Below are positions 2,670 to 37,646 of a stretch of DNA of 64,000 nt, piece by piece. The stretch comes from Mobula hypostoma (Eukaryota). The notes beneath the pieces are model-generated. The model made no database searches. It was not told the origin of the DNA and saw nothing but the letters and a program-made list of their open reading frames with translations. Position 1 is the stretch's first letter, and each line of letters opens with the position of its first letter. Position numbers and translations under genes: made by a program. The DNA is taken from assembly GCF_963921235.1 (NCBI RefSeq), contig NC_086097.1, positions 52,640,001-52,704,000 on the forward strand, in the 5' to 3' direction.

Positions 2670-2813
2670 CGCAAACACGAGGAAATCTGCAGATGCTGGA
2701 ATTTCAAGCAACACACATCAAAGTTGCTGGTGAATGCAGCAGGCCAGGCAGCATCTCTAGGAAGAGGTATAGTCGACATTTCAGGCCGAGACCCTTTGTC
2801 AGGACTAGAAAGT
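2670..2813 (-). mobile_element. Short PLE terminus in the intron of the upstream receptor gene
   Basis: Same terminus sequence. TSD tcatagaaa at 2661-2669 and 2814-2822. Confidence 0.8.
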
Positions 2814-3576
2814 TCATAGAAAGTTTATTTCCCTGGTTTTGATTGTGTGATATTGGTGATGTTGTTTAGAATAGGAGAACAGGAGAATAACCTAAAATGT
2901 TTAAGTTAAAAATCATGGTTGATAAATTTTGCTGTGATCTGCAATGAGTTAATTAACATGAATTACTCCTGGACTTCAGTTTCATTGCATTTTTAAATCA
3001 ATTTTTCAATTGACTAAATACATAAATAGCTTTTAACAATGAAAATTCTCAATGCAAAAGGATGAAAGAAGTTGAAAATTTTCTGCAAGCAAGGTAATTG
3101 ATTCAGGTTAGCAGTTTATATTAAGCCCACAAAGGGCAGAATTTTTGTGAACCTAAGGTATTAAGGGGTCTGGAGCTAAGTACAGCTAATGAGGATGGTC
3201 GTGGTATCATTGAAGATGAAACTCTTGGCTGACTTCTTTGCTCAGATAAAACAGAGGAAAACACAAATATAACACCATGGTGGAAGAAAAATATTGTTCT
3301 GAGATGAGGATGCATAATAGTTAATGTACCAAAACCCTTTTAATACTATGGAATGAAGATTTATTTCATTTTAGCAAGATTGAAAGTAAACTAAAACACT
3401 GCAAACATGTTTGGAATCCACGGTGTTTACAACCATGCATTTTGTTTAGTTATTTCTATTAACATGTTGCAGAATCCTTTTCTACCACATCTGATAAATA
3501 GCATTCTCTTTAAGACATTTCTTCTTGCATAATATTGTGAATGTCTAAAATCTATCAATCTTCTTAAATATTTTAG

Positions 3577-3783
3577 ATTCGTGCATATATTGGTGCATTT
3601 GCTCCTGATGGCAAAGATGAAGAAGATTTGATTGCCCTAAAGTGTGCTTCGGTGAATTCGATCGTTGATCCATGGGTTTTCATAATTTTCAGAACATCTG
3701 TTTTCCGGAAACTACTTTTTGTATGTTTCAAAGATTCTTCCACAAGGATGAACTTACAGTCAGTGCCTGCTGTTGAAAATTAA
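3577..3783 (+). CDS. PTGDR: Terminal coding exon (end of TM6, ECL3, TM7, C-tail) of a prostanoid GPCR, most similar to prostaglandin D2 receptor DP1; exon 1 lies upstream of the window
   Basis: Acceptor tattttag ends at 3576. The phase-0 frame reads [68 protein letters not shown] (TAA 3781-3783). It has the prostanoid TM7 DPW motif. [15 protein letters not shown] resembles mammalian DP1 (SIVDPWIFIIFRSPVFR, from memory). Its position upstream of, and co-oriented with, an EP2-like gene matches the mammalian PTGDR-PTGER2 tandem. The symbol is tentative. Confidence 0.75.
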
Positions 3784-4949
3784 AACACTGTTCTTGATAG
3801 TGGAATTATTTTATTGCCTTGCTATTTCTTTGATTTTTCAAGTTAAAATAAAAATGGAGGCTCTTCAAAAGTGGAAGAACAAGGAATACTCAACAAAATT
3901 CCATAGTAATGGGCATTGCTTTTAAAGTTGGTAAAGACATTCCCAGTAATTTTAAAGCTCTTAAAGTTGTGAAAGGCATTACTCAAACTGGAGCAGAGAA
4001 AACTAAGATTAATTTATGCAGTTGTAACCTTCTATCTGTAAGTTGCAACCTATTATTATTATGTTTCTATGTACGTATATATTCATAATGTTTGCATGCT
4101 TGTTAATGATTGTCTCTGGCTAAAGTATGAATCTATACAACTTCAATAATAATATGTTTAATGGACAATTTTTGTCTGTGTTCCAACTTGTCAGAATTGC
4201 TTTAAATCTGGATAAATCCCAATTTCAATTTGTCTAGTTCTGTTTGCTGACTTAATAATACACCTGAGATAGATATTTCATTCTATTTGGAGTTTTCACA
4301 GGACTCTAAAGACATTTAGTGGGCACTAAAAATAATGTAAGTGCACCAGCAATGTTCTGCAAGATTTTTCAGATTTGAATCTTGTGATAGTGGGCTTAAA
4401 ACTAAACATTAATGTGGTGTTCACGAGCATTAACATCACCATAATATGTCAACTCATGGTCTGGCACATGTATTGATATCAAGCCAGTGTATCATTCCAG
4501 CCTCAATGAACACACAGGCATGCTTGGAGCAGTACCATAAACACCTAAAAATGAGGTTGCAGTACAGGACCTCATACATGCTAAGCTGCAAACACAGCAT
4601 GCAAAAGACAGAGATAACCAAATGATCAGATCAAACTCTGCAATCCTGCCACATCTAATCATGAAACACGATGAACAATTAAACACCTAAAAGGAGAAGG
4701 AGCATCTAAAAACACTCCTATTCTCTGTGATGGCGTGGCCCTCCCTCTGAATGCTAAAGTGAAGGCTGCAATATTCACAATCACTTTTCGCTGGAAGAGC
4801 TGTGGAAACTTGACCAGCTGTGTCCTGTTCACGGAAGCAGAACTAATCAAAGCTGACTATTTATATTTAAACCTATGCCTGTGCTTATTCCAATGAAAAG
4901 GCGGATTTGTAAGTTCACAGGCAATGGAGGCATTGTGAATATTGCTCTT

Positions 4950-5125
4950 GCCACTGTATGTAAAGAGTTTGTACGTTCTGTCAGTGACCTCGTGCATTTC
5001 CTCTGCATGCTCTGATTTCCTCCACATCCCAAAGATGTACAGATTAGCAAGCTAATTGATCATATGGGTGAAATTGGCAACGTTGGCTCATTGGGCTGGA
5101 AGGGCCTATTACTGTGTTGCGTCCC
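4950..5125 (+). repeat. V-SINE/HE1-like SINE remnant; similar copies at about 20985-21300, 38293-38600 and 62700-63190 (-)
   Basis: tttcctc..tgctc..tttcctcc.ac.tcccaaaga core typical of the V domain. Confidence 0.6.
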
Positions 5126-5149
5126 TAAAATAATAAAAAAAAACTAAAA

Positions 5150-5885
5150 ATAGATCACTTGGATGAAGAAATGACAAACAGAGTTTGATCCAATCAAGGT
5201 GAGTGTGAGGTGTTGCACTTTGGAAGATCAATTGTAAAGGGACAGTACAGAGTTAATGGCAGGGTCCTTAACAACGTTGATGTACAGAGGATCTAGTAAG
5301 CAGTCAATAGCTCCCTGAAAGTAGCTGCACAGGCTTATGGGCTGGTAAAGAAAGGCATTAGTCAGGCATTGAGTTCAAGAATCAGGATGTTATGTTGCAA
5401 CTGCTTAGGTTATATTTGGTGTATTGCAATCGATTCTAGCTTCCCCTTTACTGGGAGTTGTTGGAGAAAGTGCAGAAGCAGTTCACCAGAATGCTGCCTG
5501 GATTCAAGGGAATGTGCTCCAAGAAGAGATTGGACAATGCTGGGTTGTTTTCACTGGAGCAAGAGGTTGAGAACCTGATAGAAGGTGTAGGTAGACAGCC
5601 AGTAACTTTTTTCCAAGAGTCAAAATGTCTACTATTAAGCTGCATGTATTTAGGTTGAGAGGGGATCAGTTCAGAGGAGGTGTGCAGGGGCAAGATTTTT
5701 AATATAGAATGTAGTAGGCACCTTGAATGCACTGCCACAGGTGCTGGTAGAGATGAATACAACAGAGGCATCTTAGATGGGATACATGAATATGCAGAGA
5801 ATGGAAGGATATGGACACTGTGAAGACAGAAGAAATTAGTTACTTATTTAGTTTCGAGTTCAATTAGTTTGGCACAATATTTGGC
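5150..5885 (+). mobile_element. Degraded CR1 3' fragment
   Basis: LEKVQKQFTRMLPG..GLFSLE. Confidence 0.7.
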
Positions 5886-7134: not shown

Positions 7135-7560
7135 TTTGGGCCCGTACTCACTGGAATTTAGAAGAATGCAGGGGGATTTCATTGAAACCTACTGAATGTT
7201 GAAAGGACTAGATAATGTGGATGTGGAAAGCATGTTTCCTATGGTGGGAGTATCCAGAACTAGAGGGCACAGCCTCAAAATTGAGGGATGACCTTTCAGA
7301 ACAGAGGTAAGGAGGAATTTTTTTTTTAGCCAGAGAGTAGTGAATCTGCGGAATGCTCTGTCACAGACTGCGGTGGAGACCAAGTCCATGGGTATATTTA
7401 AGACAGAGCTTGATAGTTTCCTGATCGGTCAGGGCATCAAAGGATATGGTGAGAAGGCAGGTGTATGGGGTTGAGTGGGATCTGGGTTCAGTCATGATGA
7501 AATGGCAGAACAGACTCGACAGGCTGAATGGCCTAATTCTGCCCCTATGTTTTATGGTCC
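7135..7560 (+). mobile_element. CR1 3' end
   Basis: Homologous to 51490-51900 and to 28140-28560 (reverse complement). Confidence 0.75.
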
Positions 7561-9007: not shown

Positions 9008-9318
9008 CCCCTCCCTCTTTCTTTCTCCCTAGGCCTCCCATCCCATGATCCTCTCATATCCCTTTTGCCAATCACCTGTCCAAATCTTGGCTCCATCCCT
9101 CCCTCCTCCTGTCTTCTCCTATCATTTCGGATCTCCCCCTCCCCCTCCCACTTTCAAATCTCTTACTAGCTCTTCTTTCAGTTCGTCCTGACGAAGGGTC
9201 TCAGCCCGAAACGTCGACTGTACCTCTTCCTAGAGATGCTGCCTGGCCTGCTGCGTTCACCAGCAACTTTGATGTGTGTTGCTTGAATTTCCGGCATCTG
9301 CAGAATTCCTGTCGTTTG
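9008..9318 (+). mobile_element. PLE terminus followed by a copy of the flank of the 16.3-17.7 kb element
   Basis: Similar to 17400-17713 and followed by 9319-9497, which matches 17714-17891. Confidence 0.8.
9184..9219 (+). ncRNA. Minimal hammerhead ribozyme
   Basis: GUC-CUGACGA-AGGGUCUCAGCCC-GAAAC-GUC-GAC. Confidence 0.65.
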
Positions 9319-9593
9319 CATTTCTTCAGAGAATAAGGTTGTACATTGGTAGGTCTGACAGAAAACGCACCTGCATTGTCAAAGAGTGTGCAAAATTTTG
9401 GCAAGAACCTTAACAGCTTAGAGCCTCTTTAAATCAGAATAGTTGGTAAACCTGATTTAAACTTTGGATTCAAATATGTGGCCAACATTTTAGGAGAACG
9501 TTGCAAAATGTTGGAGGAACTCAGCAAGCCAGGTAGCACCTATGGAGAGGAACAAACGGCTGATGCTTTGCGCCAAGACCTTTCATCAGGCCT

Positions 9594-10675
9594 TTCAATA
9601 TTTGATAGGTTTCAATGAGAATCCACACCCCACCCCCCAGCTCTTCTAACCTTCAGAGAGTACAGATCTAGAGCCTTCAAACACTCCTCATACATTAACC
9701 CTTTCATTCCCAGGATCATTCTAGTGATCATTGTCAATGCCATCATGTTCTTTGTTAGATGTAGGGCCCAAAATTGCTCACAATATTGCACAGGTGGTCT
9801 GACCAATGCTTTACAAAGCCTTAGCATTACATCCTTACTTTTATATTCCATTCCTCCTGAAATGAATGCTAACATTATATTTGCCTTCCTTACTACTGAC
9901 TCAACCTATGAGTTAATGCATTCGGAGTCCTAAGTCCTTTGCATTTCCAATTTCTGAATTTGCTCCCCATTTAAAAAATAGTCTATGCCTTTATTCCTTC
10001 TACTAAAGTTCATGACCATACATTTCCCTACATTGCCACTTCTTTGTCTATTCTGTTAATTTGTCCATCCTTCCATAGATTTCCTGCTTCCTCAAAAATA
10101 CCTGCCCCTATCTTTGTATCATCCACAAACTTGGCCTCAAGTCCATCAGTTCAGTCACCTATCTCATTAACATATAATGTGAAGTGGACCCAACACCAAC
10201 CCCTGTAGTTGCTCCATTGGTCATTAACAGCTGACCAGAAAAGGTCCCGTTTATTCCCATTCTTTGCCTTCTGACAGTCAGCCAATCTTCTCTCCATGTT
10301 GGTATCTTTTCTATAATACTTTGGGCTCTTTTATTTATTAGCAGCTTCTAGTCCAACACTTTGTCAAAGATCTTCTGAAATCCAAGTAAACAAGATCCAT
10401 TGACTCTTTTGTCTATCCTGCTTGTTATTTCCTCAAAGGATTCTGACATTTTTGCCAGGCAGGATTTCCCCTTAAGGAAACCATGCCAACTTCAACCTAT
10501 TTTATCATGTGCCCCATACCTCCAAACTTCATCCTTAATAATGAACTCTAACAGCTTGCCAACCAATAGTTTCCTGTTTTTGCCTCCTTCCCTTCTTAAA
10601 GCATGGAGTGACATTTGCAATTTTCCAGAACAATGGAACCATTGCAGAAGCAAGAATCGAATGATTCTGGAAAGA
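9594..10675 (-). mobile_element. Degraded CR1 fragment
   Basis: MLAFISGGMEYKSKDVMLRLCKALVRP. Confidence 0.75.
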
Positions 10676-16286: not shown

Positions 16287-17713
16287 GCACACATCAAAGT
16301 TGCTGGTGAACGCAGCAGGCCAGGCAGCATCTCTAGGAAGAGGTGCAGTCGACGTTTCGGGCCGAGACCCTTCGTCAGAACTAACTGAAGGAAGAGTTAG
16401 TAAGAAATTTGAAAGTGGGAGGGGGAGGGGGAGATCCAAAATGATAGGAGGAGGGGGAGGGATGGAGCCAAGAGCTGGACAGTTGATTGGCAAAGGGGAT
16501 AAGAGAGGATCATGGGACAGGAGGCCCAGGGAGAAAGACGGGGGTGAGGCAAACCCAGAGGATGGACAAGGGGTATAGTCAGAGGGACAGAGGGAGAAAA
16601 AGGAGAGTGAGAGAAAGAATGTGTGTATAAAAATAAATAACGGATGGGGTACGAGTGGGAGGTGGGGCATTAGCAGAAGTTAGAGAAGTCAATGTTCATG
16701 CCATCAGGTTGGAGGCTACCCAGACGGAATATAAGGTGTTGTTCCTCCAACCTGAGTGTGGCTTCATCTTTACAGTAGAGGAGGCCGTGGATAGACATAT
16801 CAGAATGGGAATGGGATGTGGAATTAAAATGTGTGGCCACTGGGAGATCCTGCTTTCTCTGGCGGACAGAGCGTAGGTGTTCAGCAAAACGATCTCCCAG
16901 TCTGCGTCGAGTCTCGCCAATATATAGAAGACCACATCGGGAGCACCAGACGCAGTATATCACCTCAGTCGACTCACAGGTGAAGTGTTGCCTCACCTGG
17001 AAGGACTGTCTGGGGCCCTGAATGGTGGTAAGGGAGGAAGTGTAAGGGCATGTGTAGCACTTGTTCCGCTTACAAGGATAAGTGCCAGGAGGGAGATCAG
17101 TGGGGAGGGATGGGGGGGGACGAATGGACAAGGGAGTCGCGAGGGAGCGATCCCTGCGGAAAGCGGGGGTGGGGAGGAAAAGATGTGCTTAGTGGTTGGA
17201 TCCCGTTAGAGGTGGCGGACATTTTACTTCCACATCCCATTCCCATTCTGACATGTCTACCCATGGCCTCTTCTACTGTAAAGATGAAGCCACACTCAGG
17301 TTGGAGGAACAACACTTTATATTCCGTCTGGGTAGCCTCCAACCTGATCATTCACTTCTCCAACTTCCGCTAATGCCCCACCCCATCTGTTATTTGTCCC
17401 GTCCCCCCCCCCCGTCTTTCTCCCCGGACCTCCTGTCCCATGATCCTCTCGTATCCCTTTTGCCAATCACCTGTCCAGCTCTTGGCTCCATTCCTCTCCC
17501 TCCTGTTTTCTCCTATCATTTTGGATCTCCCCCTCCCCCCTTCCACTTTCAAATCTCTTACTAACTCTTCCTTCAGTTAGTCCTGACAAAGGGTCTCGGC
17601 CTGAAACGTCGACTGTACCTCTTCCTAGAGATGCTGCCTGGCCTGCTGCTTTCACCAGCAACTTTGATGTATGTTGTTTGAATTTCCAGCATCTGCAGAC
17701 TTCCTGTTGTTTG
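16287..17713. mobile_element. Second inverted-repeat PLE insertion (GIY-YIG end plus termini)
   Basis: The - arm 16287-17219 contains the GIY-YIG ORF (16670-17131); the + arm spans 17220-17713. 14-bp TSD catttctccagaga at 16273-16286 and 17714-17727. Confidence 0.9.
16347..16382 (-). ncRNA. Minimal hammerhead ribozyme
   Basis: AGUU-CUGACGA-AGGGUCUCGGCCC-GAAAC-GUC-GACU on the - strand. Confidence 0.7.
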
Positions 17714-20159: not shown

Positions 20160-20900
20160 CACTGCCACAAGCTGCCCACTCCCTCACCTCCATTCAGGGC
20201 TCAAAACATCCTTCCAGGTGAAGCAACACTTCACCTGTGAATCTGCTCTGGTCATCTATGGTGTCCAGTTCTTCTGATGTGGCCTTCTCTACATTGGTGA
20301 GACCTATTGTAAATTGGGGAACCGTAAATTGGTGCATCGAGCATCTCCTCTCCTTCTGCCACAAGCAGAATGTCCTGGTTGCCAAACATTTTAATTTCCT
20401 ATTCCAACATGTCTGTCCATGACCTCCTCTTGTGCAAGAGAAGAGGCCACCCTCGGATCAATACCTTATATTCTGTCTGGATAGCCTCCAACCTGATGAC
20501 ATGAATATCGATTTCTCCCTCTGATAAAAAAAAATTCCCCCCTTTTCTCTATTCCCCACTCTGACCTTTTACCTCTTCGCATGTGCCTATTAATTCCCCC
20601 TGGGTCCCCTCCTCCTTCCCTTTCTTCTATGATCCATTCTCCTCTCTGATCCGATTCCTTCTTCTCTAGCCCTTGACCCACCTGGCTTCACCTATCACCT
20701 TCCAGCTAGCCTCCATCCCCTCCACCACCTTTTTATTCTGTTGTCTTCCCCCTTTCTTTTCAGTCCTGAAGAGGGGTCTCAGCCCGAAATGGCGACAGTT
20801 TATACATTTCCATTGCTGCTGCCTGGCCAGCTGGGTTCCTCCGGCATTCTGTGCGTGTTGCTTTGGGTTTCCAGCATCTGCAGACTTTCTTGTGTTTATG
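20160..20900 (+). mobile_element. Old degraded Neptune-type PLE 3' fragment
   Basis: Diverged homolog of 33120-33888 with a degenerate hammerhead near 20762-20797. Confidence 0.7.
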
Positions 20901-21504: not shown

Positions 21505-22430
21505 ACTGTCCCTTTGCCATCTCCAAAGAGATCCTACCACTAAGCACATCTTTACTTCCCTCACTCCCCACTGTCTGCTTTCTGCAAGGATCGCTCTCTC
21601 TGTAATTCCTTCAGCAATTCATCCCTCCCACTAATCTCCCTCCGGCACTTAGCCCTGCAAGCTGACAAAGTGCTATACCTGCCCATTCACCTCCTCTTTC
21701 ACCTACATTCAGGGCCCCAACCAACCTTCCAGGTGAGGCAATATTCTCCCAGGTGAACCTGCTGGGGTCGTCTACTGTATCTGGTGCTCCCAATATGGCT
21801 TCCCCTATAGTGTTGAGACCTGGGACCACTTCGTTAAGCACCTCTGCTCAATCTGCCAAAAGCGGAACTTGCCGGTGGCCGAACATTTCAATTCCCATTC
21901 CCATTCTGACATGTCATGTCGGTCCATGGCCTCCTCTTGTGCCATGATGAGGCCACCCTTGGGTGGAGGAGCACCTCCTTATATTCCATCTGGGTAGCCT
22001 CCAACCCGAAGGCATGAACATTGATTTTTCCTTTTGGTAAAAAAAAATTCCCCCCCTTCCCCTGTTCTTCTATTTCCCACTCTGGCCTCTTACCTATTCT
22101 CACCTGGCTATCGCCTCCCTCCTGGTGCCCCTCCTTCTTTTCTTTCTCCCATGGTCCACTCTCCTCTCCTATCAGATTCCTTTCATGCCCATCCCTTTAT
22201 CTTTCACACCCACCTAGCTTCATCCGTCACCTTCTAGTTAGCTCTCTCCCCAACCCCCACCATTTTATTCTGGTTTCTTCCCCCTTCCGTTCCAGTCACG
22301 AAAAAAGGGCCCAGCCAGAAAAGTCAGCTGTTCGTTTCCATGGATGCTCTTTGCCCTGCTGAGTTCCTCCAGCATTTTGTGTGTGGTGCTTTGGATTTCC
22401 AGCATCTTCAGAATTTCTTGTGCTTATGAT
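21505..22430 (+). mobile_element. Old degraded Neptune-type PLE 3' fragment
   Basis: Diverged homolog of 32930-33888. Confidence 0.7.
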
Positions 22431-22699
22431 TCTGTTCTTTAATCAGTGAAGGAAAAGTACTTATAAACAAGAAGTCTGAAGTCCACTTTTGAAATCTCTG
22501 ATGATAGGATCTCTTGACCAACAGAGCTGTTATGCCTTTTCAGGAATAATCTCAGTCCCGAACTCATAACCACATAAATGTGCTCACCAAGCGCCACCAT
22601 TGGTTTTGGTTCTGCCATTTCCCCATCTTCATAGGCTGCCTCTCCAGGCTGAGAATGATTTGTTTCTATTCTAGGTATTTGATATTTAACAAGAAAAAA

Positions 22700-25510
22700 G
22701 TGAAATCCACAGATGCTCCCACTTCTCCCATTGATGACCGGCGCACCACCAAGAAGCTCCGACCTAAACCATCAAACACTCCCGTTTCAGTCTGCTACAT
22801 CTAAGGTAGGTACAGTTGGTAACATTGTGTTTTAATACGATTAAAAATTAATCGCTACTTAAATCGACAGAACTCGAACGGATTCTGGTCACGGTTCCCC
22901 TTTAAGAAAGCGGAAGCGGGGATGCCGAGTTGGTTTATAAATTTATCTGAGGAAACGGGGCTTCCGAACAGGGCTTGCTGGCAAATGTAGTCTCTGATAA
23001 ATAAAATCGAAGATCTCAGGGCTAGAGCGCTGTGCCAGAGGGACATTAGGACCAGTTGCAGCTTTCTGTTTCACGGAATCTTATTTAACCCCTTCCATTC
23101 CGAAGGCAGCGATTCAACTTGATGGGTTCACAATACACCAAGATAGGACTGCCGAGGCAGAGGAAGTGGAGTATGCTTCATGATCAGTTCCTCGTGGTTA
23201 CAAACGTGGCGATTCTGCCCCAATCCTGGAACACCTCGCGGTCAAGTGCCGTCCATTCTATCTGCCGCGGGAGATTTTGGCCATCATCTTGGTAGCGGTG
23301 TACGTTACACCTCAGGCTGGTGTCAAACAGGCTCCAGACGAACTGAGTGATGTAATCAACCGGCATGAAACAGCGCATCCCGACGCCTTCCCCTTCATTT
23401 TGGGGGACTTGAACCAGGGCAGCTTGAAGAAGACTCTAAATAATTATTATAAGCAAATCACTTTTAGTACCAGAGGGAACAACATAGTGGACTACTGTTA
23501 CTATACTATGCCGTTTATCGTGCTGTGCCTCGTCCACACTTTGGTAAGTCTGATCACCTAGCTGTACTTCTACTCCCTGAGTATAGACAGAGACTGAAGA
23601 CTGCAGCACCTGTAGTGAGGACCAAGCAGGCATGGACAAGGAAGCCCTATCACAAGCAAGAGGGAGTCCGGAGATGCTGGAAAACCAAGCAACACATATA
23701 AGATGCTGGAGGAAATCAGCAGACCAGGCAGCACCTATGGAAAAGAGTATAGTCGACATCTGGGGCCAAAATTATACTCTTTTCCTTAGCTACTGCCTGG
23801 TCTGAAGGATAAAGGAGGCACAGGAGTGCCTGCCGGTCTGCTTAGAATCAGGTGAACTGGACTGATTTCAGGGAATCATCCTCGAGTTTGAATGAGTATG
23901 CCTCAGCTGACAGACTTCATTAAAACTTGTGTGGATGAGTGTGTGCCTACGAGAACTTACTGTATACCGTATACCCAAATCAAAAGCTGTGGATGAACCA
24001 GGAGGTTCGTATTCTGCTGGGGACTAGATTTGTGGCATTTAAGTCTGGTGACCCAGGTCTGCAAAACCAGGTATGACATGCAGAGGGCTATTTCAAAATT
24101 TATGGAACAATTCTGATCGAGGTTGGAGGCGACATTGGATGCATGTCAACTCTGGCAGAGTTTACAGGCCATTAATTACTACAAGGTGAAAGCTAACACC
24201 ATAAATGGCCATGATGCTTCACTCCCAGATGAGCTCATTGCCTTTTATGCTCGCTTTGAAAGGGAGAAGAAAACTACAGCTATGAGGTTCCCTGCAGCAC
24301 CTGGTGACCCTGTGATCTCTGTCTCAGAGACTGACGTCAGGCTGCCTTTCAAGAAGATGAGCCCCCACAAGGCGACAGGCCCCAATGGAATACCTGGTAA
24401 GGCTCTGAAAACTTGTGTCAACCAAATGGCAGAGGGTGTTCTAAGGTATTTTCAATGTCTCATTGCTACAGTTGGAAGTTCTCACCTGCTTCAAAAGGGC
24501 AACAATTATACAAGTGTCCAAGAAGAGCAGGGTGACCTTCCTTAATTGACTATCATCCAGCAGCCCTTGTATCAATGATGATGAAGCGCTTTGAGAGGTC
24601 CATTATGGCTAGAATTAACTCCTGTCCCATCAAGACTGGACCCAATTTGCCTATCACCACAACAGATCAACAGTGGACACGATCTCATTGGCTTTTCATG
24701 CGGCCTTGGATCACCTGGACAATACTAATACCTATGTCAGGATGCTGTTTATTGACCACAGCTTGGTGTTTAACACAATCATTTGTACAATTCTGATTGA
24801 AAAGCTCCAGAACCTAGGCCTATGTACCTCCCTCTGCAACTGCATCCTTAACTTCCCAAATGGAAGATCACAATCTGTACGGATCAGAAACAACATCTCC
24901 ACCTTACCGACAATCAACACTGGCACATCACTGCTCTACTCTCTCTACACACATGACTGCGTGGCTAGGCAGAGATCAAATGCCATTTATAAACTTGCTG
25001 ACGATACAACTATTGTTGGCAGAATTTCAGATGGTGAAATGGGGCCGGGGGTGGGCTACTGCACAGCATGGAAGTAAACTGCAGAGAGTTGTAAGCTTCC
25101 AGCTCCATCATGGGCACTAGCCCCCATAGTATCCAGAACGTTCTTCAAGGAGCGATACCTCAAAAAGGCAGCGTCCATCATGAAGGATATCCACCCCAAG
25201 GAAATGCCCTTTTCTCATTGCTACCATCAGCAAGGAGGTACAGAAGCCTTAAGGTACACACTCAATGATTCAGGAACAGCTTCTTCCCCTCTGACATCTG
25301 ATTTCTGAATGGACATTGAACCCATGAACACTATCTCACTTTTTAAAAATTTCTTTTTTTGCACTATTTAACTAACTTAATGTACTGTATATATGCTCAC
25401 TGTAATTCACATTTTTTCCTATTGTTATGGTTTGCATTGTACTGCTGCCACAAAGTTAACAGATTTCATGACATATGCTGGTGACATAAAAGCCGATTCT
25501 GATTCTAATT
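22700..25510 (+). mobile_element. Degraded Rex1/Babar-like LINE (AP endonuclease + RT), interrupted by a short repeat at about 23650-23810
   Basis: Remnants [67 protein letters not shown]; 3' tail gattctgattct. Confidence 0.8.
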
Positions 25511-28900: not shown

Positions 28901-30043
28901 TAACTAAAACTATTAAAACTTTAATCGTTAGTAACAGACATGGTGATCAGATTGTCAGAAAATCTTCGCTAAATTTTCTTTCTACACATACACTGCCTGA
29001 TCTTCTCTACAATAGTTCTAATCTATATTTCACAGCTTTTATGTCTCTTCATTGATTGTTTCTCTAAATGAACCTGTTATCCATCAACTAGATGGTTTTA
29101 CAAACAGCGTATCGCATTGATAATCCTGACCTCACCTTATCAGAAACACTCCTTTTGTTCAATCAAACTTTCTCCCACCCTCTCAGTGACTTAAAGCCAA
29201 TTTGTTTCTTACTTTTCTAGTTCAGACAAAGTGACTTCAACCTGAAACTTTAACTGTGCCGCCTTTTCACAAATGCTGCCTGGTCAGCTGAGAGTTCCAA
29301 CCATTTTCTGCTCTTGTTGCACTGTATGCCGGGCCATTCCGACATTCATATGCTGGACAGAGTGTTCCATTGTTGCTGGAGATCAGGAAGCCCAACTGAT
29401 TTTGGACTTTCTCATCAAAGCTCAAGTACAGGCCACTGAAATAATTCCTCCTCTAAGCAGGAGGTCTGGATTTCTGGATACTTTGTCATTGACACAACTT
29501 CTTGGATGTTTTTTTAAAATTTCAGAGGTATTCAAGAATCAACCACATTAGTGTGGTACTAGAGTTATTTATATGAGACATGTTGTAAGGTCAGCTAATT
29601 CCTTTTTTTTCCCCAAGGGATTTAGATAAGATTTTCTATTTTAGAAAATGGTATTTCAGATAAGAAATATCTGAAATATATTGTATTAATATATGTATTT
29701 TTGTCACAAGCTTTAAAACTCAGTTTTAGTTATTTCATTGAATTCAAATCTTCAGATGGCAGTAATGTGATTTGTATATTAATATGAGCCTCTGGCTTCT
29801 GCCTACTAATGTGTTTCAGTTCTCCTGTTCCCATGTAGTATTCATTAACTATGCTGACAAAAAAAAACTTATGTTTAATGTATTTCATTTCCCTAATTTA
29901 TCGCAGTAGCTGGGAAATGCATGTGCCACAAAAAGAAATTGCAGTAGGTTCATCAGACTTTTCAGGAGGGTATGCTGCTCGTTCCTTGGTTGAGTCTTCC
30001 TGAAAAAGCCATCCTCTCGAACTGGCATACAAACTGTTCAGTT

Positions 30044-30330
30044 CAACACACTCAAAATGCTGGAGGAATTCAGCAGGCCAGGCAGCATCTATGGAAAAGA
30101 ATACATAATCGACGTTTCGGGCTGAGACACTCATCAGGATGTAAGACCTATTGACAAAACAACTGAATGGTTTCACAAACACAAGAATGAATTGTCTCTT
30201 CCTGATGAAGGGTGTCGATGAAACGATCACTGTTCACTCTTTTCCATAGATGCTGCCTGGCCTGCTGAATTCCTCCAGCATTTTGTGTGTGTTGCTTTGG
30301 ATTTCCAGCATCTGCAGATTTTCTCCTGTT
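30044..30330. mobile_element. Older short inverted pair of PLE-type termini
   Basis: The - copy (30044-30140) has a CUGAUGA..GAAACGUC core at 30108-30140; the + copy spans 30200-30330. No TSD seen. Confidence 0.65.
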
Positions 30331-30530
30331 TATGACTCATATCCTATGAATGCATTAAAAAAAAACAAGATACAGTAGGTGAAGACAGCCGTTGGTAGGT
30401 GAATACTTATTGCCAACTTAAAATTTAATCGCAAACAACAGGAATTCTGCAGATGCTGGAAATTCAAGCAACATACATCAAAGTTGCTGGTGAACGCAGC
30501 AGGCCAGGCAGCATCTATAGGAAGAGGCGC

Positions 30531-30566
30531 AGTCGACGTTTCAGGCCGAGACCCTTCGTCAGGACT
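30531..30566 (-). ncRNA. Minimal hammerhead ribozyme (PLE left arm)
   Basis: Reverse complement of the 33788-33823 motif. Confidence 0.75.
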
Positions 30567-30860
30567 AACTGAAGGAAGAGTGAGTAAGGGATTTGAAAGC
30601 TGGAGGGGGAGGGGGAGATGCAAAATGATAGGAGAAGACAGGAGGGGGAGGGATGGAGCCGAGAGCTGGACAGGTGATAGGCAGAAGGGGATACGAGAGG
30701 ATCATGGGACAGGAGGTCCGGGAAGAAAGACGGGGGGGGGGGTGACCCAGAGGATGGGCAAGAGGTATATTCAGAGGGACAGAGGGAGAAAAAGGAGAGT
30801 GAGAGAAAGAATGTGTGCATAAAAAAGAGTAACAGATGGGGTACAAGGGGGAGGTGGGGC

Positions 30861-32591
30861 CTAGCGGAAGTTAGAGAAGTCAATGTTCATGCCATCAGGT
30901 TGGAGGCTACCCAGACGGAATATAAGGTGTTGTTCCTCCAACCTGAGTGTGGCTTCATCTTTACAGTAGAGGAGGCCGTGGATAGACATGTCAGAATGGG
31001 AATGGGATGTGGAATTAAAATGTGTGGCCACTGGGAGATCCTGCTTTCTCTGGCGGACAGAGCGTAGATGTTCAGCAAAGCGGTCTCCCAGTCTGCGTGG
31101 GGTCTCACCAATATATAAAAGGCCACATCGGGAGCACCGGACGCAGTATATCACCCCAGTCGACTCACAGGTGAAGTGATGCCTCACCTGGAAGGACTGT
31201 TTGGGGCCCTGAATGGTGGTAAGGGAGGAAGTGTAAGGGCATGTGTAGCACTTGTTCCGCTTACACGGATAAGTGCCAGGAGGGAGATCAGTGGGGAGGG
31301 ATGGGGGGGACGAATGGACAAGGGAGTTGTGTAGGGAGCGATCCCTGCGGAATGCAGAGAGAGGGGGGGAGGGAAAGATATGCTTAGTGGTGGGATCCCG
31401 TTGGAGGTGGCGGAAGTTACGGAGAATAATATGTTGCTCCCGGAGGCTGGTGGGGTGGTAGGTGAGGACCAGGGGAACCCTATTCCTAGTGGGGTGGTGG
31501 GAGGATGGAGTGAGAGCAGATGTACGTGAAATGGGGGAGATGCGTTTAAGAGCAGAGTTGATAGTGGAGGAAGGGAAGCCCCTTTCTTTAAAAAATGAAG
31601 ACATCTCCCTCGTCCTAGAATGAAAAGCCTCATCCTGAGAGCAGATGCGGCGGAGACGGAGGAATTGCGAGAAGGGGATGGCGTTTTTGCAAGAGACAGG
31701 GTGAGAAGAGGAATAGTCCAGATAGCTGTGAGAGTCAGTAGGCTTATAGTAGACATCAGTGGATAAGCTGTCTCCAGAGACAGAGACAGAAAGATCTAGA
31801 AAGGGGAGGGAGGTGTCGGAAATGGACCAGGTAAACTTGAGGGCAGGGTGAAAGTTGGAGGCAAAGTTAATAAAGTCAACGAGTTCTGCATGCGTGCAGG
31901 AAGCAGCGCCAATGCAGTCGTCGATGTAGCGAAGGAAAAGTGGGGGACAGATACCAGAATAGGCACGGAACATAGATTGTTCCACAAACCCAACAAAAAG
32001 GCAGGCATAGCTAGGACCCATACGGGTGCCCATAGCTACACCTTTAGTTTGGAGGAAATGGGAGGAGCAAAAGGAGAAATTATTTAGAGTAAGGACTAAT
32101 TCCGCTAGATGGAGCAGAGTGGTGGTAGAGGGGAACTGATTAGGTCTGGAATCCAAAAAGAAGCGTAGAGCTTTGAGACCTTCCTGATGGGGGATGGAAG
32201 TATATAAGGACTGGACATCCATGGTGAAAATAAAGCGGTGGGGGCCAGGGAACTTAAAATCATCGAAAAGTTTAAGAGCGTGAGAAGTGTCACGAACATA
32301 GGTCGGAAGGGATTGAACAAGGGGTGATAAAACAGTGTCGATGTATGCAGAAACGAGTTCGGTGGGGCAGGAGCAAGCTGAGACAATAGGTCGGCCAGGA
32401 CAGGCAGGTTTGTGGATCTTGGGTAGGAGGTAGAAACGGGAAGTGCGGGGTGTGGGAACTATAAGGTTGGTAGCAGTGGATGGGAGATCCCCTGAGCGGA
32501 TAAAGTCGTTGATAGTGTGGGAGACAATGGCCTGATGCTCCTTGGTGGGGTCACGATCGAGGGGTAAATAAGAGGAGGTATCCGCGAGTTG
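30861..32591 (-). CDS. PLE reverse transcriptase + Cys-rich linker + GIY-YIG endonuclease (open frame, N-terminus missing)
   Basis: RT motifs LPKIHK, FTMDVQSLYTSIP, QTKGVAMG and LRYIDD; linker CKRNKCYTC; endonuclease VIYCVRCSRCGLLYIGET..RFAEH. No stops from the inversion junction to the TAG. Confidence 0.9.
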   Translation of the reverse strand, partial: QLADTSSYLPLDRDPTKEHQAIVSHTINDFIRSGDLPSTATNLIVPTPRTSRFYLLPKIHKPACPGRPIVSACSCPTELVSAYIDTVLSPLVQSLPTYVRDTSHALKLFDDFKFPGPHRFIFTMDVQSLYTSIPHQEGLKALRFFLDSRPNQFPSTTTLLHLAELVLTLNNFSFCSSHFLQTKGVAMGTRMGPSYACLFVGFVEQSMFRAYSGICPPLFLRYIDDCIGAASCTHAELVDFINFASNFHPALKFTWSISDTSLPFLDLSVSVSGDSLSTDVYYKPTDSHSYLDYSSSHPVSCKNAIPFSQFLRLRRICSQDEAFHSRTREMSSFFKERGFPSSTINSALKRISPISRTSALTPSSHHPTRNRVPLVLTYHPTSLREQHIILRNFRHLQRDPTTKHIFPSPPLSAFRRDRSLHNSLVHSSPPSLPTDLPPGTYPCKRNKCYTCPYTSSLTTIQGPKQSFQVRHHFTCESTGVIYCVRCSRCGLLYIGETPRRLGDRFAEHLRSVRQRKQDLPVATHFNSTSHSHSDMSIHGLLYCKDEATLRLEEQHLIFRLGSLQPDGMNIDFSNFR

Positions 32592-33494
32592 TCCACTGAT
32601 GTCTACTATAAGCCTACTGACTCTCACAGCTATCTGGACTATTCCTCTTCTCACCCTGTCTCTTGCAAAAACGCCATCCCCTTCTCGCAATTCCTCCGTC
32701 TCCGCCGCATCTGCTCTCAGGATGAGGCTTTTCATTCTAGGACGAGGGAGATGTCTTCATTTTTTAAAGAAAGGGGCTTCCCTTCCTCCACTATCAACTC
32801 TGCTCTTAAACGCATCTCCCCCATTTCACGTACATCTGCTCTCACTCCATCCTCCCACCACCCCACTAGGAATAGGGTTCCCCTGGTCCTCACCTACCAC
32901 CCCACCAGCCTCCGGGTCCAACATATTATTCTCCGTAACTTCCGCCACCTCCAACGGGATCCCACCACTAAGCATATCTTTCCCTCCCCCCCTCTCTCTG
33001 CATTCCGCAGGGATCGCTCCCTACACAACTCCCTTGTCCATTTGTCCCCCCCATGCCTCCCCACTGATCTCCCTCCTGGCACTTATCCGTGTAAGCGGAA
33101 CAAGTGCTACACATGCCCTTACACTTCCTCCCTTACCACCATTCAGGGCCCCAAACAGTCCTTCCAGGTGAGGCATCACTTCACCTGTGAGTCGACTGGG
33201 GTGATATACTGCGTCCGGTGCTCCCGATGTGGCCTTTTATATATTGGTGAGACCCCACGCAGACTGGGAGACCGCTTTGCTGAACATCTACGCTCTGTCC
33301 GCCAGAGAAAGCAGGATCTCCCAGTGGCCACACATTTTAATTCCACATCCCATTCCCATTCTGACATGTCTATCCACGGCCTCCTCTACTGTAAAGATGA
33401 AGCCACAATCAGGTTGGAGGAACAACACCTTATATTCCGTCTGGGTAGCCTCCAACCTGATGGCATGAACATTGACTTCTCTAACTTCCGCTAG
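32592..33494 (+). pseudogene. Inverted duplicate of the PLE C-terminal RT/GIY-YIG region
   Basis: Same peptide as the - strand ORF C-terminus with a few substitutions (REQH/RVQH, HSSPPS/HLSPPC, TLRL/TIRL). Confidence 0.85.
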
Positions 33495-33787
33495 GCCCCA
33501 CCTCCCCCTCGTACCCCATCTGTTACTTATTTTTATGCACACATTCTTTCTCTCACTCTCCTTTTTCTCCCTCTGTCCCTCTGAATATACCTCTTGCCCA
33601 TCCTTTGGGTCACCCCCCCCTTGTCTTTCTTCCCGGACCTCCTGTCCCATGATCCTCTCGTATTCCCTTTTGCCTATCACCTGTCCAGCTCTCGGCTCCA
33701 TCCCTCCCCCTCCTGTCTTCTCCTATCATTTTGCATCTCCCCCTCCCCCTCCAGCTTTCAAATCCCTTACTCACTCTTCCTTCAGTT

Positions 33788-33823
33788 AGTCCTGACGAAG
33801 GGTCTCGGCCTGAAACGTCGACT
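33788..33823 (+). ncRNA. Minimal type I hammerhead ribozyme in the PLE terminus
   Basis: AGUC-CUGACGA-AGGGUCUCGGCCU-GAAAC-GUC-GACU: stem I AGUC/GACU, intact core, hairpin stem II, palindromic ACGU stem III. Predicted cleavage after 33819. Confidence 0.75.
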
Positions 33824-34039
33824 GCGCCTCTTCCTATAGATGCTGCCTGGCCTGCTGCGTTCACCAGCAACTTTGATGTATGTTGCTTAAAATTTAATCA
33901 TTTGGTCCCAAATACTGCAACAGTATCTGTTTTCTTCAGGAACCGGTTGTTACTCACACCAACCTCGTTTGCTGCAAGTTTCATCCTAGCAACGAAACAG
34001 AAATGGTGTTTCTCATTGAAATTCTGAAAACCTAGTGGG

Positions 34040-34585: not shown

Positions 34586-35368
34586 ATGATCAATGAATCT
34601 TGCGAGAACAGGACAGATATTACCCAAGATGCGGGGCCCTTCGTCAGCGCCGCGATGTTCGCTACTGGGGTGCTGGGCAACGTACTGGCGCTCGTCATCC
34701 TCGCAATGCACAAGCGAGACCTCAAGAGCAAAATGTCGCTCTTCCACATCCTCGTGAGCAGCCTAATTATTACCGACCTGGTGGGAACTCTGATCATCAG
34801 TCCGATGGTACTGACCGCCTACGCCCGGCGCCGCACACTGCTGACTCTGAGCTTATGCAGCTGTTGTGCCTTCGCCATGGCTTTCTTCGGGCTCTGTTCC
34901 ATGTTCATCCTGTTTGCTATGGCGGTAGAGCGCTGTCTCTCCCTCAGTTGTCCCTACTTCTACCGACGGCACGCCAGCAACCGCTGCGGGCTGATCACCA
35001 TTCCGGCTATCTATATTTTCTGCCTTATCTTCTGTTCCCTACCCCTGCTGAAGTTTGGCATCAACGCGCAGTATTGCCCGGGCACCTGGTGTTTCATCAA
35101 GATGGAAGTTTGGAATCTGGAGGTGAAGCACCGCGTCTATTCCCTGTCCTACGCGGTTCTGATGAAGGTGCTGATCATCTCCATTCTACTGTGTAACATC
35201 TCCGTAATAGTCAACCTCTGCCGAATGTACCAAAGGCAAAAGACCCGCCGGCACTCGAGTGCGCACCGAACAAGAAAGCATCGGCATTCCCAGTCCGAAG
35301 AAGTTGATCATCTCGTTCTTTTAGCCATAATGACAACAACGTTTGTTATTTGTTCTGTGCCTCTCACG
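34586..35368 (+). CDS. PTGER2: Prostaglandin E2 receptor EP2-like, coding exon 1 (N-terminus to TM6, 261 codons)
   Basis: Kozak gccATG at 34586. Motifs GVLGN (TM1), TDLVGTLIISP (TM2), MAVERCLSL (TM3), QYCPGTWCF (ECL2) and EEVDHLVLLAIMT (TM6). Donor ACG|gtgagt at 35368/35369, the conserved TM6 intron position of prostanoid receptors. Confidence 0.9.
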
Positions 35369-35774
35369 GTGAGTGTTAATATTGTCTAATACAGTGCAGA
35401 ACTTTTCCCAAAGGGGGATGTAAATATAAACATATTGTCACCCTGCCTACTTCCAGATTTTGTGCAGATGCAAGAATTCTAGATGCAAGAAAAATGGTGA
35501 GTAAAATTAGGAAAAAGAGGCCAGTCATTTGTAAGGGCTGTGAAGTTGTATGTGTGTATGTATATATGTAACATTTTTAATCTTCACTGATTCAACTTGA
35601 GAAAGAAAACTTCAGAATTGCTTATCCATAGAAATTAATTCATTTGAAATTGGAGGTTGGAAAGTTAATTTATAGGGATATGCCATCAATAAGGATCGTA
35701 ATGAGAGGTCAGGAGACATAAAGGGCTAATGTGAATTTAGTATCATCATATATCATCTACTAATAAATTGGATT

Positions 35775-35906
35775 TTCAAATCCCTTACTCACTCTTCCTT
35801 CAGTTAGTCCTGACGAAGGGTCTCGGCCTGAAACGTCGACTGCGCCTCTTCCTATAGATGCTGCTTGGCCTGCTGCATTCACCAGCAACTTTGATGTATG
35901 TTGCTT
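35775..35906 (+). mobile_element. Short PLE terminus inserted in the EP2 intron
   Basis: Near-identical to 33757-33888. 14-bp TSD taataaattggatt at 35761-35774 and 35907-35920. Confidence 0.88.
35806..35841 (+). ncRNA. Minimal hammerhead ribozyme, sense strand of the EP2 intron
   Basis: Identical to 33788-33823. Confidence 0.75.
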
Positions 35907-36470
35907 TAATAAATTGGATTGCTCATTTTTGCATTGTTTCAGATTAGTTAAAACTTAAACTACTTGGTGATTTAACCAACTGAGAAATGTAAATATAAGC
36001 ATATTTCCAATAATCACAAAGTATGAGTCATCATCATGGCTTTGCCAATGATGGCCAGTCCTGATTCAGGACTTCAGTCTGAAACACTGACAATCCCTAT
36101 CATCTCCACCTGCTTGACCTGCTGAGTTCCTCCAGAACTTTGTTTTTTTCTACTGGATTACAGCATCTACAGTCTCTTGTATCTCCATGACCAGATCTAA
36201 TGTATGAATATATAAATGTATATATTTTTATTGTTATGCAATTATCTACACAAATTATAGTAACTTGTATTGCATTTTATAAAATGGTATTTAAAGGCTA
36301 TCTAAAAGTTTCCTAATGATTAAAGTACTTTTTGAGCAAAAATGCACCTTAATGGTCTTATATTTGATTGCTTAAATCAGATTCAAAATGTGAGACATCA
36401 TAATAGAACTGTAATATTTAGACTTTTCTTTGAAACTGATACAAATATTTGACCTTATATTTTTCCTTAG

Positions 36471-36695
36471 ATTCGTGCATACATTGGAGCATTTCACAAT
36501 GTCGAAAACGATGGAAATGATCTTGTGGCTCTCCGTTGCCTGTCTTTTAATTCAATTATTGATCCATGGGTTTTTATTATTCTCAATACAACTGTGTTTA
36601 GAAAGATATTGTCCAGGATATTATGCTGTAAAATTACTTCTAAAAGAAAACAATTACATTGCAACACTGATAAAAGTATTGAAATACTCACATGA
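36471..36695 (+). CDS. PTGER2: Prostaglandin E2 receptor EP2-like, coding exon 2 (74 aa + stop; full protein 335 aa)
   Basis: Acceptor ttttccttag ends at 36470, phase 0, matching exon 1. Reads [74 protein letters not shown] (TGA 36693-36695). NSIIDPWVF and LCC resemble EP2. Confidence 0.88.
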   Translation: MRAYIGAFHNVENDGNDLVALRCLSFNSIIDPWVFIILNTTVFRKILSRILCCKITSKRKQLHCNTDKSIEILT

Positions 36696-37177
36696 AGTCA
36701 CTTTGGGACAGGCATTCCTGATACTTGAATTTACTGAAAGTTTTTTCCAAAACTTATTTACAACCAAACCATCATTTTGAGAGAAAGATGCACTTGATAT
36801 CATGTGGGATTTGGCACATGAATTTGCTTTTTTGTATTTTCATCGAGTAAGAAGAAAGTTACCAATAAATCAACAGATAAGGGACATGCACAGAGGTTTT
36901 TGACCTGTTGAGAGTCTGGCTGACATAAGCTATGAAGCATCATTATTTTTCTCTCTGTGATTCTTCAAATATTTGAGAAAATATTGTAATTTTGTAATTT
37001 TATTTTAAACCATGTACTCACTTTCAAGCTTTATTTTATAAATTTAATTTTTGCATTCCTCTGTTTAAAGGATAGCTTATATAGGTTGAATTAGCTTTCA
37101 AATTATTAAAACAAAATATAGTGAATGGGTCTATTTATATAAAGCCAATACTGGTTTTATAATCTATTTAAATTACA

Positions 37178-37646
37178 CAAACAACAGGAATTCTGCAGAT
37201 GCTGGAAATTCAAGCAACACACATAAAAGTTGCTGGTGAATGCAGCAGGCCAGGCAGCATCTCTAGGAAGAGGTGCAGTCGACGTTTCAGGCCGAGACCC
37301 TTCGTCAGGACTAACAGAAGGAAGAGTGAGTAAGAGATTTGAAAGTTGGAGGGGGAAGGGGAGATCCAAAATGGTAGGAGAAGACAGGAGGGGGAGGGAT
37401 GGAACCCTTGGTTTACAGCATCTACAGTCTCTTGTATCTCCATGACCAGATCTAATGTATGAATATATAAATGTATATATTTTTATTGTTATGCAATTAT
37501 CTACACAAATTATAGTAACTTGTATTGCATTTTATAAAATGGTATTTAAAGGCTATCTAAAAGTTTCCTAATGAGGGATGGAACCCATCTTCCTAGAGAT
37601 GCTGCCTGGCCTGCCTGCGTTCACCAGCAACTTTTATGTGTGTTAC
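37178..37646. mobile_element. Short inverted PLE insertion enclosing a 162-bp copy of EP2 intron DNA
   Basis: The - terminus spans 37178-37407, the captured segment 37413-37574 and the + terminus 37588-37646. 10-bp TSD ttaaattaca at 37168-37177 and 37647-37656. Confidence 0.88.
37277..37312 (-). ncRNA. Minimal hammerhead ribozyme downstream of the EP2 stop codon (antisense)
   Basis: Reverse complement of the same motif, core intact. Confidence 0.72.

What the first reader, a model, noticed from the sequence alone, without database searches (positions are those of the whole stretch)
2771..37312. PLE termini distribute a minimal, probably dimer-dependent hammerhead ribozyme across the locus
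Seen: the motif AGUC-CUGANGA-(stem II)-GAAAC-GUC-GACU with an intact core at 9184, 16347, 30108, 30531, 33788, 35806 and 37277, and core-mutated copies at 2771, 17579 and about 20762. Stem I varies compatibly (AGUC/GACU, AGUU/GACU, AUC/GAU). Stem III has no loop, only the palindrome ACGU. Known: PLE termini encode minimal type I hammerheads that cleave as dimers through palindromic stem III. Inference: cleavage needs two same-strand copies, so tandem templates would be processed while single or inverted genomic copies would be quiet.
Basis: partly seen in the sequence, partly recalled or inferred. Interest (0 to 1): 0.7.

Follow-up and report, generated by a model that had tools for sequence, protein, structure and literature searches.

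The report
Penelope retrotransposon minimal hammerhead copies
The repeated motif is real, but it is the already described small "needs-a-partner" self-cutting RNA that Penelope-like jumping genes carry near their ends, scattered here as shortened, decaying copies around a prostaglandin-type receptor gene in a ray-like fish.

Summary
Observation confirmed: 7 intact cores CUGANGA...GAAACGUC lie at the stated places (0 in 100 shuffles), on both strands. The three mutated copies are real, and about 8 further decayed copies were missed. All sit in the 3' terminal repeat of a Penelope-like element (RT, Cys linker, GIY-YIG) whose protein is 95% identical to a Mobula protein. This is the min-HHR of Cervera and De la Pena 2014. 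The tandem-dimer idea is already in print (PMC6765202). The scan has noted this motif before, in this genome and others.

- Stem covariation is not shown (0 double changes among 8 young copies; 3 of 72 cells in 8 old copies against 1.6 by shuffling, P=0.19).
- Core mutants are mostly CpG decay.
- The window holds no tandem unit, only 5'-truncated single or inverted insertions with target-site duplications.
- All 8 young copies run 63-107 nt past the cut site, so their templates were uncut or rejoined there.
- Nearest-neighbour folding favours a locked, inactive rod over the active dimer.

Verdict: new member of a known kind, low interest.

The parts
33788..33823 (+). Intact min-HHR, youngest subfamily; predicted cut after 33819; right arm of the inverted insertion 30431-33887
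30531..30566 (-). Intact min-HHR, identical to 33788; C17 at 30535; left arm of the same insertion, 3' of the long ORF
35806..35841 (+). Intact min-HHR, identical to 33788, on a ~130-bp insertion (35775-35906) in the receptor intron, sense orientation; cut after 35837
   Evidence: 14-bp duplication at 35761 and 35907
37277..37312 (-). Intact min-HHR on composite insertion 37178-37647
   Evidence: 10-bp duplication at 37168 and 37647
16347..16382 (-). Intact core; stem I C2.1>U (U-G wobble), stem II G10.1-C11.1; left arm of inverted insertion 16287-17714
   Evidence: 14-bp duplication at 16273 and 17714
17579..17614 (+). Core mutant G8>A at a CpG; right arm of the same insertion
9184..9219 (+). 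Intact core; A2.4>C breaks a stem I pair; lies in a local duplicate (9008-9497) of 17403-17891
2771..2806 (-). Core mutant G8>A and C15.2>U, both at CpG; ~140-bp insertion beginning at the 5' border of the hammerhead
   Evidence: 9-bp duplication at 2661 and 2814
30108..30140 (-). Old-subfamily copy: intact core and ACGU, 3-bp stem I (AUC/GAU), damaged stem II
20762..20797 (+). Old-subfamily copy, dead core (C15.2>U, U16.1>G), 3' of a decayed endonuclease fragment (20179-20903)
22289..22431 (+).
23649..23795 (-). Decayed old copy, hammerhead 5' half lost (missed)
29214..29299 (+). Decayed old copy (missed)
30193..30335 (+). Decayed old copy, inverted to 30108 (missed)
36052..36177 (+). Decayed old copy in the receptor intron, stem II with one double change (missed)
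9498..9598 (-). Decayed old copy (missed)
45269..45423 (+). Decayed old copy (missed)
37584..37650 (+). Tail-only piece starting about 7-10 nt 3' of the cut site; no hammerhead
30861..32591 (-). 5'-truncated but open PLE ORF, 576 codons: RT (YIDD), CX4CXXC linker, GIY-YIG with CCHH
32586..33494 (+). Inverted, shorter ORF arm (thumb, linker, GIY-YIG); the two arms are 98.7% identical over 1,307 bp
30417..33899 (.). Whole young inverted insertion with 14-bp target-site duplication (30417-30430 and 33886-33899); left end carries the tail, right end does not
34586..36697 (+). Host gene: two-exon prostanoid receptor (IP/EP2-like, 335 aa); exon 1 34586-35368, intron to 36470

Best explanation
The motifs are passengers: each is the minimal type I hammerhead in the 3' terminal repeat (pLTR) of a very abundant Penelope-like element (Neptune-type linker) of a myliobatiform-like ray. 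Shown: every copy lies in a 5'-truncated PLE end; 5 insertions are bounded by 9-14-bp target duplications; two are head-to-head twins; 3' ends fall in two classes, 63-69 and 103-107 nt past the cut site. Inferred, by analogy with the Anolis PLE: the element's protein nicks the target and starts reverse transcription at one of two internal RNA sites downstream of the hammerhead, on RNA that is uncut (or rejoined) at the hammerhead, so even the shortest insertion usually contains the motif; priming on both target strands gives the inverted twins. Inferred: the hammerhead cannot close stem III alone and by itself folds into a rod that pairs the core G5-A6-C7-G8 with C15.2-G16.2-U16.1-C17; cleavage would need a second copy and probably the PLE protein or another chaperone, in transcripts of tandem source elements that lie elsewhere. 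After insertion the copies decay, fastest at the four CpGs, three of which sit on G8, the palindrome and the cut site. The dispersed copies have no function at this locus.
For: Motif far above chance. PLE domains and ray homologues. Target duplications of 14, 14, 14, 10 and 9 bp in 5 of 13 boundary pairs tried; a shared string of 14 or more in 4 of 3000 and of 9 or more in 15 of 3000 random pairs. Two end classes about 35-40 nt apart, one per end in both twins, matching the 30-40-bp tail of PMC8557442 and the two RT starts of PMC11167929. Differences among young copies: 26 of 153 cells at CpG columns against 66 of 1816 elsewhere; all 3 core changes in young copies are CpG transitions. Folding: rod -11.9 kcal/mol, P(G5-C17)=0.98; active double hammerhead -11.1 to -12.9 against -23.8 for two monomers. 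Literature: low activity of min-HHR dimers, protein-assisted cleavage that is dispensable for insertion, 8 of 9 Xenopus dimers inactive in vitro. Motif kept by the element lineage: 2 of 208 non-CpG cells differ in the hammerhead against 64 of 1608 in the flanks (P=0.03, cells not independent); in contigs of 4 runs (3 studies) loose ends pile up at the stem I borders 33788 and 33823-33824.
Against: No cleavage was measured. Nearest-neighbour energies ignore the non-canonical core contacts and Mg2+, and no known-active control was folded, so the lock may be overstated. An intact junction in DNA cannot tell an uncut template from a cut and re-ligated circle. A CM-fitted alignment gave strong apparent covariation (14 cells, 0 of 500 shuffles), which I discount because it forces spurious rows into pairs. 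End positions were placed by eye from alignments. An unchecked scan note (e1-7790562) reports one insertion starting exactly at the cut. No full-length or tandem element was available; the genome is not held.
Confidence: 0.8

Rival explanations
1. One reading: RNA alone folds as a double hammerhead in tandem transcripts, both sites are cut, and the unit-length RNA is circularised and used as template; insertions read through the re-ligated junction.
For: Loop-less ACGU palindrome and perfect stems in the young family (76 of 77 cells paired); motif conserved more than its flanks; dimers of other min-HHRs cleave weakly and one Xenopus dimer strongly. A circle would also give DNA copies that run through the junction.
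Against: Active dimer is 11-13 kcal/mol above two locked monomers; in the Anolis PLE cleavage needs protein, is not needed for insertion, and no RNA-seq ends were found at the cut; none of 9 young pieces here starts at the cut.
Confidence: 0.3
2. The motif is a non-catalytic remnant: kept as an RNA hairpin that helps protein binding or RT positioning, and never cleaves.
For: The locked rod is the predicted ground state; catalytic mutants of the Anolis hammerhead still insert; Naiad PLEs thrive without hammerheads.
Against: All catalytic core positions are kept in the young family, and 75 of 88 core cells even in old decayed copies; among the 40 best-supported variants in other runs, those in the motif fall on N7, 11.1, 16.2 (CpG) and 1.4, none on an invariant core base (79 rows not shown).
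Confidence: 0.12
3. Some copies act on the host gene: 33788 and 35806 bracket the promoter and exon 1 of the prostanoid receptor on the same strand and could cut a read-through transcript.
For: Identical intact motifs, same strand, 2,018 nt apart; 35806 is sense-oriented in the intron.
Against: Both are recent insertions (98.5% identical to the youngest family); the upstream arm has no promoter of its own in view; co-folding their 70-nt contexts did not give the active form; 33788 also has a 98.7% inverted partner that would sequester it in a long transcript.
Confidence: 0.04

Closest known systems
Minimal hammerheads (min-HHR) in pLTRs of metazoan Penelope-like elements (Cervera and De la Pena 2014, PMC4209133; read: parts 1-2 of 4 of the text, parts 1-2 of 3 of supplementary file 2)
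   Same: Type I layout, CUGANGA-H-G..C-GAAA, extra base after A9, short stem I, loop-less palindromic 15.2-16.2, position 3' of RT-EN, mostly on truncated single copies and near opposite-strand pairs. The Acropora Neptune example in Fig. S3 has the same CUGACGA core, a 4-bp stem II and C-G-U-C at the cut.
   Different: No cartilaginous fish in its Table S1 or Fig. S3. Stem II is 4 bp (7-8 in Schistosoma) and 6 of 8 young copies here have G10.1-U11.1 instead of the usual G-C.
Poseidon element of Anolis carolinensis (Frangieh et al. 2024, PMC11167929; read: parts 1-2 of 4)
   Same: Hammerhead upstream of two RT start sites that define an optional tail; AT-rich targets (3 of the 5 duplications here are AT-rich); genomic copies run through the cut site.
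   Different: Different PLE clade (this ORF has a Cys linker); there the ORF starts inside stem II and the RT starts lie 111-118 nt into the ORF; no biochemistry exists for the ray element.
Neptune/Nematis EN+ PLEs (Craig et al. 2021, PMC8557442; read: 12 passages)
   Same: RT, CX2-5CxxC linker, C-terminal GIY-YIG with CCHH; 5' truncation, inverted partner, 30-40-bp tail at one end only, hammerhead near the 3' end.
   Different: No partial tandem (true pLTR pair) in this window; Neptune versus Nematis was not resolved by a tree.
Non-LTR retrozymes of vertebrates (bioRxiv 10.64898/2026.07.22.740005; read: parts 1-3 of 5, supplements closed)
   Same: PLE-derived type I hammerheads; reported from one chondrichthyan genome.
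   Different: Retrozymes are tandem arrays of hammerhead units; none of the 8 tandem repeats in this window contains the motif.

Membership tests
PLE min-HHR (Cervera 2014) | Core CUGANGA and GAAA with NUH cleavage triplet | tested here: met
   7 intact matches, 0 in 100 shuffles
PLE min-HHR (Cervera 2014) | Type I topology, short stem I (about 2-5 bp) and a stem II | tested here: met
   76 of 77 cells paired in 7 distinct young rows, 11-46% when slid
PLE min-HHR (Cervera 2014) | No loop III; palindromic 15.2-16.2 | tested here: met
   ACGU in 7 of 8 young copies
PLE min-HHR (Cervera 2014) | Extra nucleotide between 9 and 10.1; G10.1-C11.1 | tested here: met
   Extra A in 8 of 8 young copies; G-C in 2 of 8, G-U wobble in 6 of 8; C at 11.1 carries 19-62% of contig depth in 4 runs
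PLE min-HHR (Cervera 2014) | Located in the terminal repeat of a PLE | tested here: met
   About 300 nt 3' of the RT-EN stop codon in the long copies
PLE min-HHR (Cervera 2014) | Compensatory changes across family members | tested here: inconclusive
   0 double changes in young copies; 3 of 72 cells vs 1.6 expected in 8 old copies, P=0.19; CM-fitted alignment positive but unreliable
PLE min-HHR (Cervera 2014) | No cleavage as monomer, some cleavage as dimer | not testable with these tools
   Only folding energies, which disfavour the active dimer
EN+ Penelope-like element | Single ORF with RT and C-terminal GIY-YIG | tested here: met
   Pfam RVT_1 and GIY-YIG hits, both below the curated cut-offs; 1290 homologues; YIDD, YIG and CCHH motifs
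EN+ Penelope-like element | 5' truncation, inverted partner, optional 30-40-bp tail | tested here: met
EN+ Penelope-like element | Partial-tandem full-length copy with two direct pLTRs | tested here: inconclusive
   None in these 64 kb; genome not held
Neptune clade | CX2-5CxxC linker between RT and EN | tested here: met
   CX4CXXC at residue 443 of the truncated ORF; shared with Nematis
Neptune clade | RT phylogeny | not tested
   No named reference set was held
Non-LTR retrozyme | Tandem array of short hammerhead-bearing units | tested here: not met
   No such array in the window

The most novel reading that the evidence does not exclude
The ray hammerhead is a protein-gated switch: it rests in a rod in which its own core masks the palindrome and the cut site, and opens only with the element's protein. 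Two recent, identical, same-strand copies (33788 and 35806) happen to bracket the promoter and first exon of a prostanoid receptor, so a read-through RNA could form a double hammerhead across 2 kb and cut that exon out whenever the element is active, making thousands of dispersed copies conditional cutters of host RNA.
Probability: 0.04. Interest if true: 0.55.

Novelty: new member of a known kind. Interest (0 to 1): 0.13.

Why it matters
As found, it adds a ray family to a class described in 2014 and gives nothing that a PLE specialist would not expect. Its modest value is practical: whether PLE hammerheads cut in vivo is still open, and this family has young, near-identical copies with clean target duplications, so genome-wide counts of 5' ends at the cut site and a monomer/dimer/protein assay are easy to set up. 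It would matter more if dispersed copies were shown to cut host transcripts.

Tried and rejected
Whole genome: not held, so no genome-wide model or copy count of my own. Rfam: no hit on the motif. Relatives in public collections: a 19-nt tail pattern gave 1 viral and 66 metagenome loci; none extends beyond the seed in a profile search (best 17 bits against 31-164 for true copies), so all 67 were rejected as chance. PLE protein in viral contigs: 6 pattern hits, 0 confirmed. Hammerhead pattern in prokaryote genomes: 0. Expression: no RNA holder listed on record; the 4 runs laid are contigs, which cannot show ends, strand or level, so the empty table of begin/end places says nothing on cleavage. 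CM-fitted covariation rejected: row 37561 has no hammerhead and rows 45269, 57126, 4117, 50595 are forced into pairs; for the hand-anchored count I kept 8 of the 13 non-young rows and dropped 37561, 23708, 57126, 4117 and 50595. The MAFFT alignment A1 misplaced 30108 by one column and was not used for counts. Idea that the 177 bp after copies 9184 and 17579 are a longer PLE 5' UTR: rejected, they begin with the target duplication of the 17579 insertion. Idea that the locked fold is special to this family: rejected, several motifs in Fig. S3 of PMC4209133 (Acropora, Ixodes 1, Strongylocentrotus 1 and 2) have the same C7 and CGUC. Two other CTGA..GAAA regex hits (8381, 20053 and similar) lack stems and the GUC and were dropped. 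Lunse et al. 2017 is not held; only its title was seen in a reference list. Literature searches for a chondrichthyan PLE hammerhead and for CpG decay of the motif listed nothing on point; the library lacks most subscription papers.
Full report
1. Observation. Three are on the + strand (9184, 33788, 35806) and four on the - strand (16347, 30108, 30531, 37277). The mutants are as stated: 17579 (G8>A), 2771 (G8>A, C15.2>U), 20762 (C15.2>U, U16.1>G). A covariance model built from the 8 young copies found 21 hits at E<=0.05: the 8 young copies, 20762, 30108, about 8 further decayed copies, one tail-only piece and two doubtful hits. Rfam has no match to the motif.

2. What carries it. The long copies continue upstream into an ORF with RT and GIY-YIG similarity (Pfam hits below the curated cut-offs), with YIDD, a CX4CXXC linker and CCHH. 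Its best homologues are from Mobula hypostoma (95%), Hypanus, Rhincodon and Chiloscyllium; full-length invertebrate relatives are 800-950 aa, so the 576-codon frame at 30861-32591 lacks its N-terminal part. The host is therefore a ray-like cartilaginous fish (inference). The linker marks Neptune or Nematis PLEs (PMC8557442 passages); I did not build a tree.

3. Insertion anatomy. Target-site duplications bound 5 of the 13 boundary pairs that I tried: 14 bp at 30417/33886, 16273/17714 and 35761/35907, 10 bp at 37168/37647, 9 bp at 2661/2814; random pairs reach 14 or more in 4 of 3000. So 30531+33788 are one head-to-head insertion (arms 98.7% identical over 1,307 bp), and 16347+17579 are another, older one (93% in the terminal repeat). 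No head-to-tail unit exists in the window. All 8 young hammerhead-bearing copies continue past the predicted cut: by 63, 68, 69 or by 103, 104, 104, 104, 107 nt (ends placed by eye). Each twin has one short and one long end. This is the optional 30-40-bp tail (PMC8557442), which Frangieh et al. traced to two internal RT start sites (PMC11167929, parts 1-2 read). One further piece starts 7-10 nt after the cut (37584); none starts at it. The DNA therefore records templates that were uncut, or cut and rejoined, at the hammerhead.

4. Covariation. Among young copies 76 of 77 cells pair, but none changes on both sides. AUC/GAU at 30108 is one true double change, in a copy whose next two pairs are broken; 9184 breaks a pair. 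In 8 hand-anchored old copies (8 of 13 non-young rows kept) 3 of 72 cells show a double change against 1.6 by shuffling (P=0.19), 25 are broken, and pairing (47) equals the shuffled mean (47.4). Against this, the model-fitted alignment of all 21 rows gave 14 such cells and 0 of 500 shuffles; inspection shows forced pairs in rows without a proper motif, so I do not accept it. Covariation is not shown here; it is also not the right test on single dead copies.

5. Decay and conservation. The 36-nt motif holds 4 CpGs in a window with CpG observed/expected 0.3. CpG columns differ in 26 of 153 cells, others in 66 of 1816, and all 3 core changes in young copies are CpG transitions. The motif is nevertheless better kept than its flanks at non-CpG columns (2 of 208 against 64 of 1608, P=0.03, cells not independent). 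In contigs of 4 public runs from 3 studies and 3 coded organisms (877-8,430 contigs laid per run; RNA status only guessed), the listed variants within the motif are at N7 (7-31% of depth), 11.1 U>C (19-62%), 16.2 G>A (3-27%) and 1.4 (56% in one organism, where it breaks a pair); 40 rows were shown and 79 not. Loose ends pile up at 33788 (45-92 contigs per run) and 33823-33824, the borders of stem I. I read this as selection on the motif in the transposing lineage, not on the inserted copies (inference).

6. Folding. A monomer cannot close a loop-less stem III (established: hairpin loops need 3 or more bases). ViennaRNA predicts instead a rod in which G5-A6-C7-G8 pairs with C15.2-G16.2-U16.1-C17 (-11.9 kcal/mol, P=0.98; open form -7.7). 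The strand-swapped double hammerhead scores -11.1 to -12.9, against -23.8 for two rods and -32.1 for the best duplex. These energies omit core tertiary contacts and no active control was run, so they only say that dimer formation is not automatic. They fit the low activity of min-HHR dimers (PMC4209133), protein-assisted cleavage in Anolis and 8 of 9 inactive Xenopus dimers (bioRxiv 10.64898/2026.07.22.740005). The same pairing is possible in several published motifs (Fig. S3), so it is not special to rays.

7. Mechanism. Shown: motif, PLE context, truncation, twins, duplications, two end classes, CpG bias. Inferred: target-primed RT from two sites downstream of the hammerhead on uncut or rejoined RNA; two-strand priming for twins; cleavage, if any, only in transcripts of tandem source elements, with a partner copy and probably protein help (confidence 0.8 for the passenger reading as a whole). 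It cannot be tested in this window, and geometry does not secure it: 33788 and 35806 are identical, on one strand and 2,018 nt apart; 30531 and 30108 are 424 nt apart and could form one of the two swapped stems I.

8. Surroundings. A two-exon prostanoid receptor (IP/EP2-like) lies at 34586-36697. The young twin ends about 700 bp upstream of its start codon, copy 35806 is sense in its intron and 37277 is antisense downstream. Nothing indicates co-option.

9. Novelty. The class, the dimer model and the tandem argument are in print (PMC4209133; PMC6765202 passages; Lunse et al. 2017 seen as a title only). No cartilaginous fish is in Table S1 or Fig. S3 of PMC4209133 (supplementary file 1 could not be searched), and searches for a shark or cartilaginous-fish case listed nothing on point; the 2026 preprint includes one chondrichthyan, and its closed supplements may hold this family. 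The scan's own notes report the same motif in at least 9 other windows of this genome (44 notes fit the look-up) and in other genomes (unchecked AI notes, not support). Verdict: new member of a known kind; interest 0.13.

Noticed in passing
window 37409-37574 and 36154-36319: A 166-bp piece of the receptor intron (99.4% identical) is copied into the middle of the PLE insertion 37178-37647, bounded by a 14-bp direct repeat; it starts in the tail of an old PLE remnant. Looks like a recent templated local insertion.
   Followed up: partly
window 9008-9497 and 17403-17891: PLE 3' end plus 177 bp of the unique flank of copy 17579 are duplicated 8.4 kb away without a target duplication. Flank 171 of 177 identical, PLE part 90.7%; the gap is not significant once CpG columns are removed (P=0.21). 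Local duplication or 3' transduction; copy 9184 is probably not an independent insertion.
   Followed up: partly
window 34586-36697: Two-exon prostanoid receptor gene (335 aa; best PDB hits prostacyclin receptor and EP2) with a GC-rich promoter, and a young 3.5-kb inverted PLE about 700 bp upstream that may be polymorphic.
   Followed up: partly
window 36061-36090 and 29223-29250: Two old copies share a different stem II (GGAC-UUCA-GUCU type), perhaps an older subfamily with a UUCG-like loop lost to CpG decay.
   Followed up: no
window 2810, 30145, 30195, 45270, 9596: Several short copies seem to begin right at the 5' border of the hammerhead, as if RT often stops just after copying the hairpin; for old copies a diverged upstream region is an alternative.
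   Followed up: partly
window 7897-8478: 193-codon frame resembling a GIY-YIG-type endonuclease end of another PLE family (by eye; no Pfam hit at E<=0.001).
   Followed up: no
window 53200-54053: Minisatellite, period 28, 30.5 copies, 88% matches; no hammerhead.
   Followed up: no
window 24619-25077, 27363-27881, 41440-43399, 50428-51545: Fragments of other LINE-type reverse transcriptases (Pfam RVT_1 for 24619 and 50428).
   Followed up: no
P0002, P0004: Public ray proteins named after host genes (a divergent kinase domain protein, a chitinase domain protein) consist largely of this PLE's ORF, probably annotation of repeat sequence as exons.
   Followed up: no
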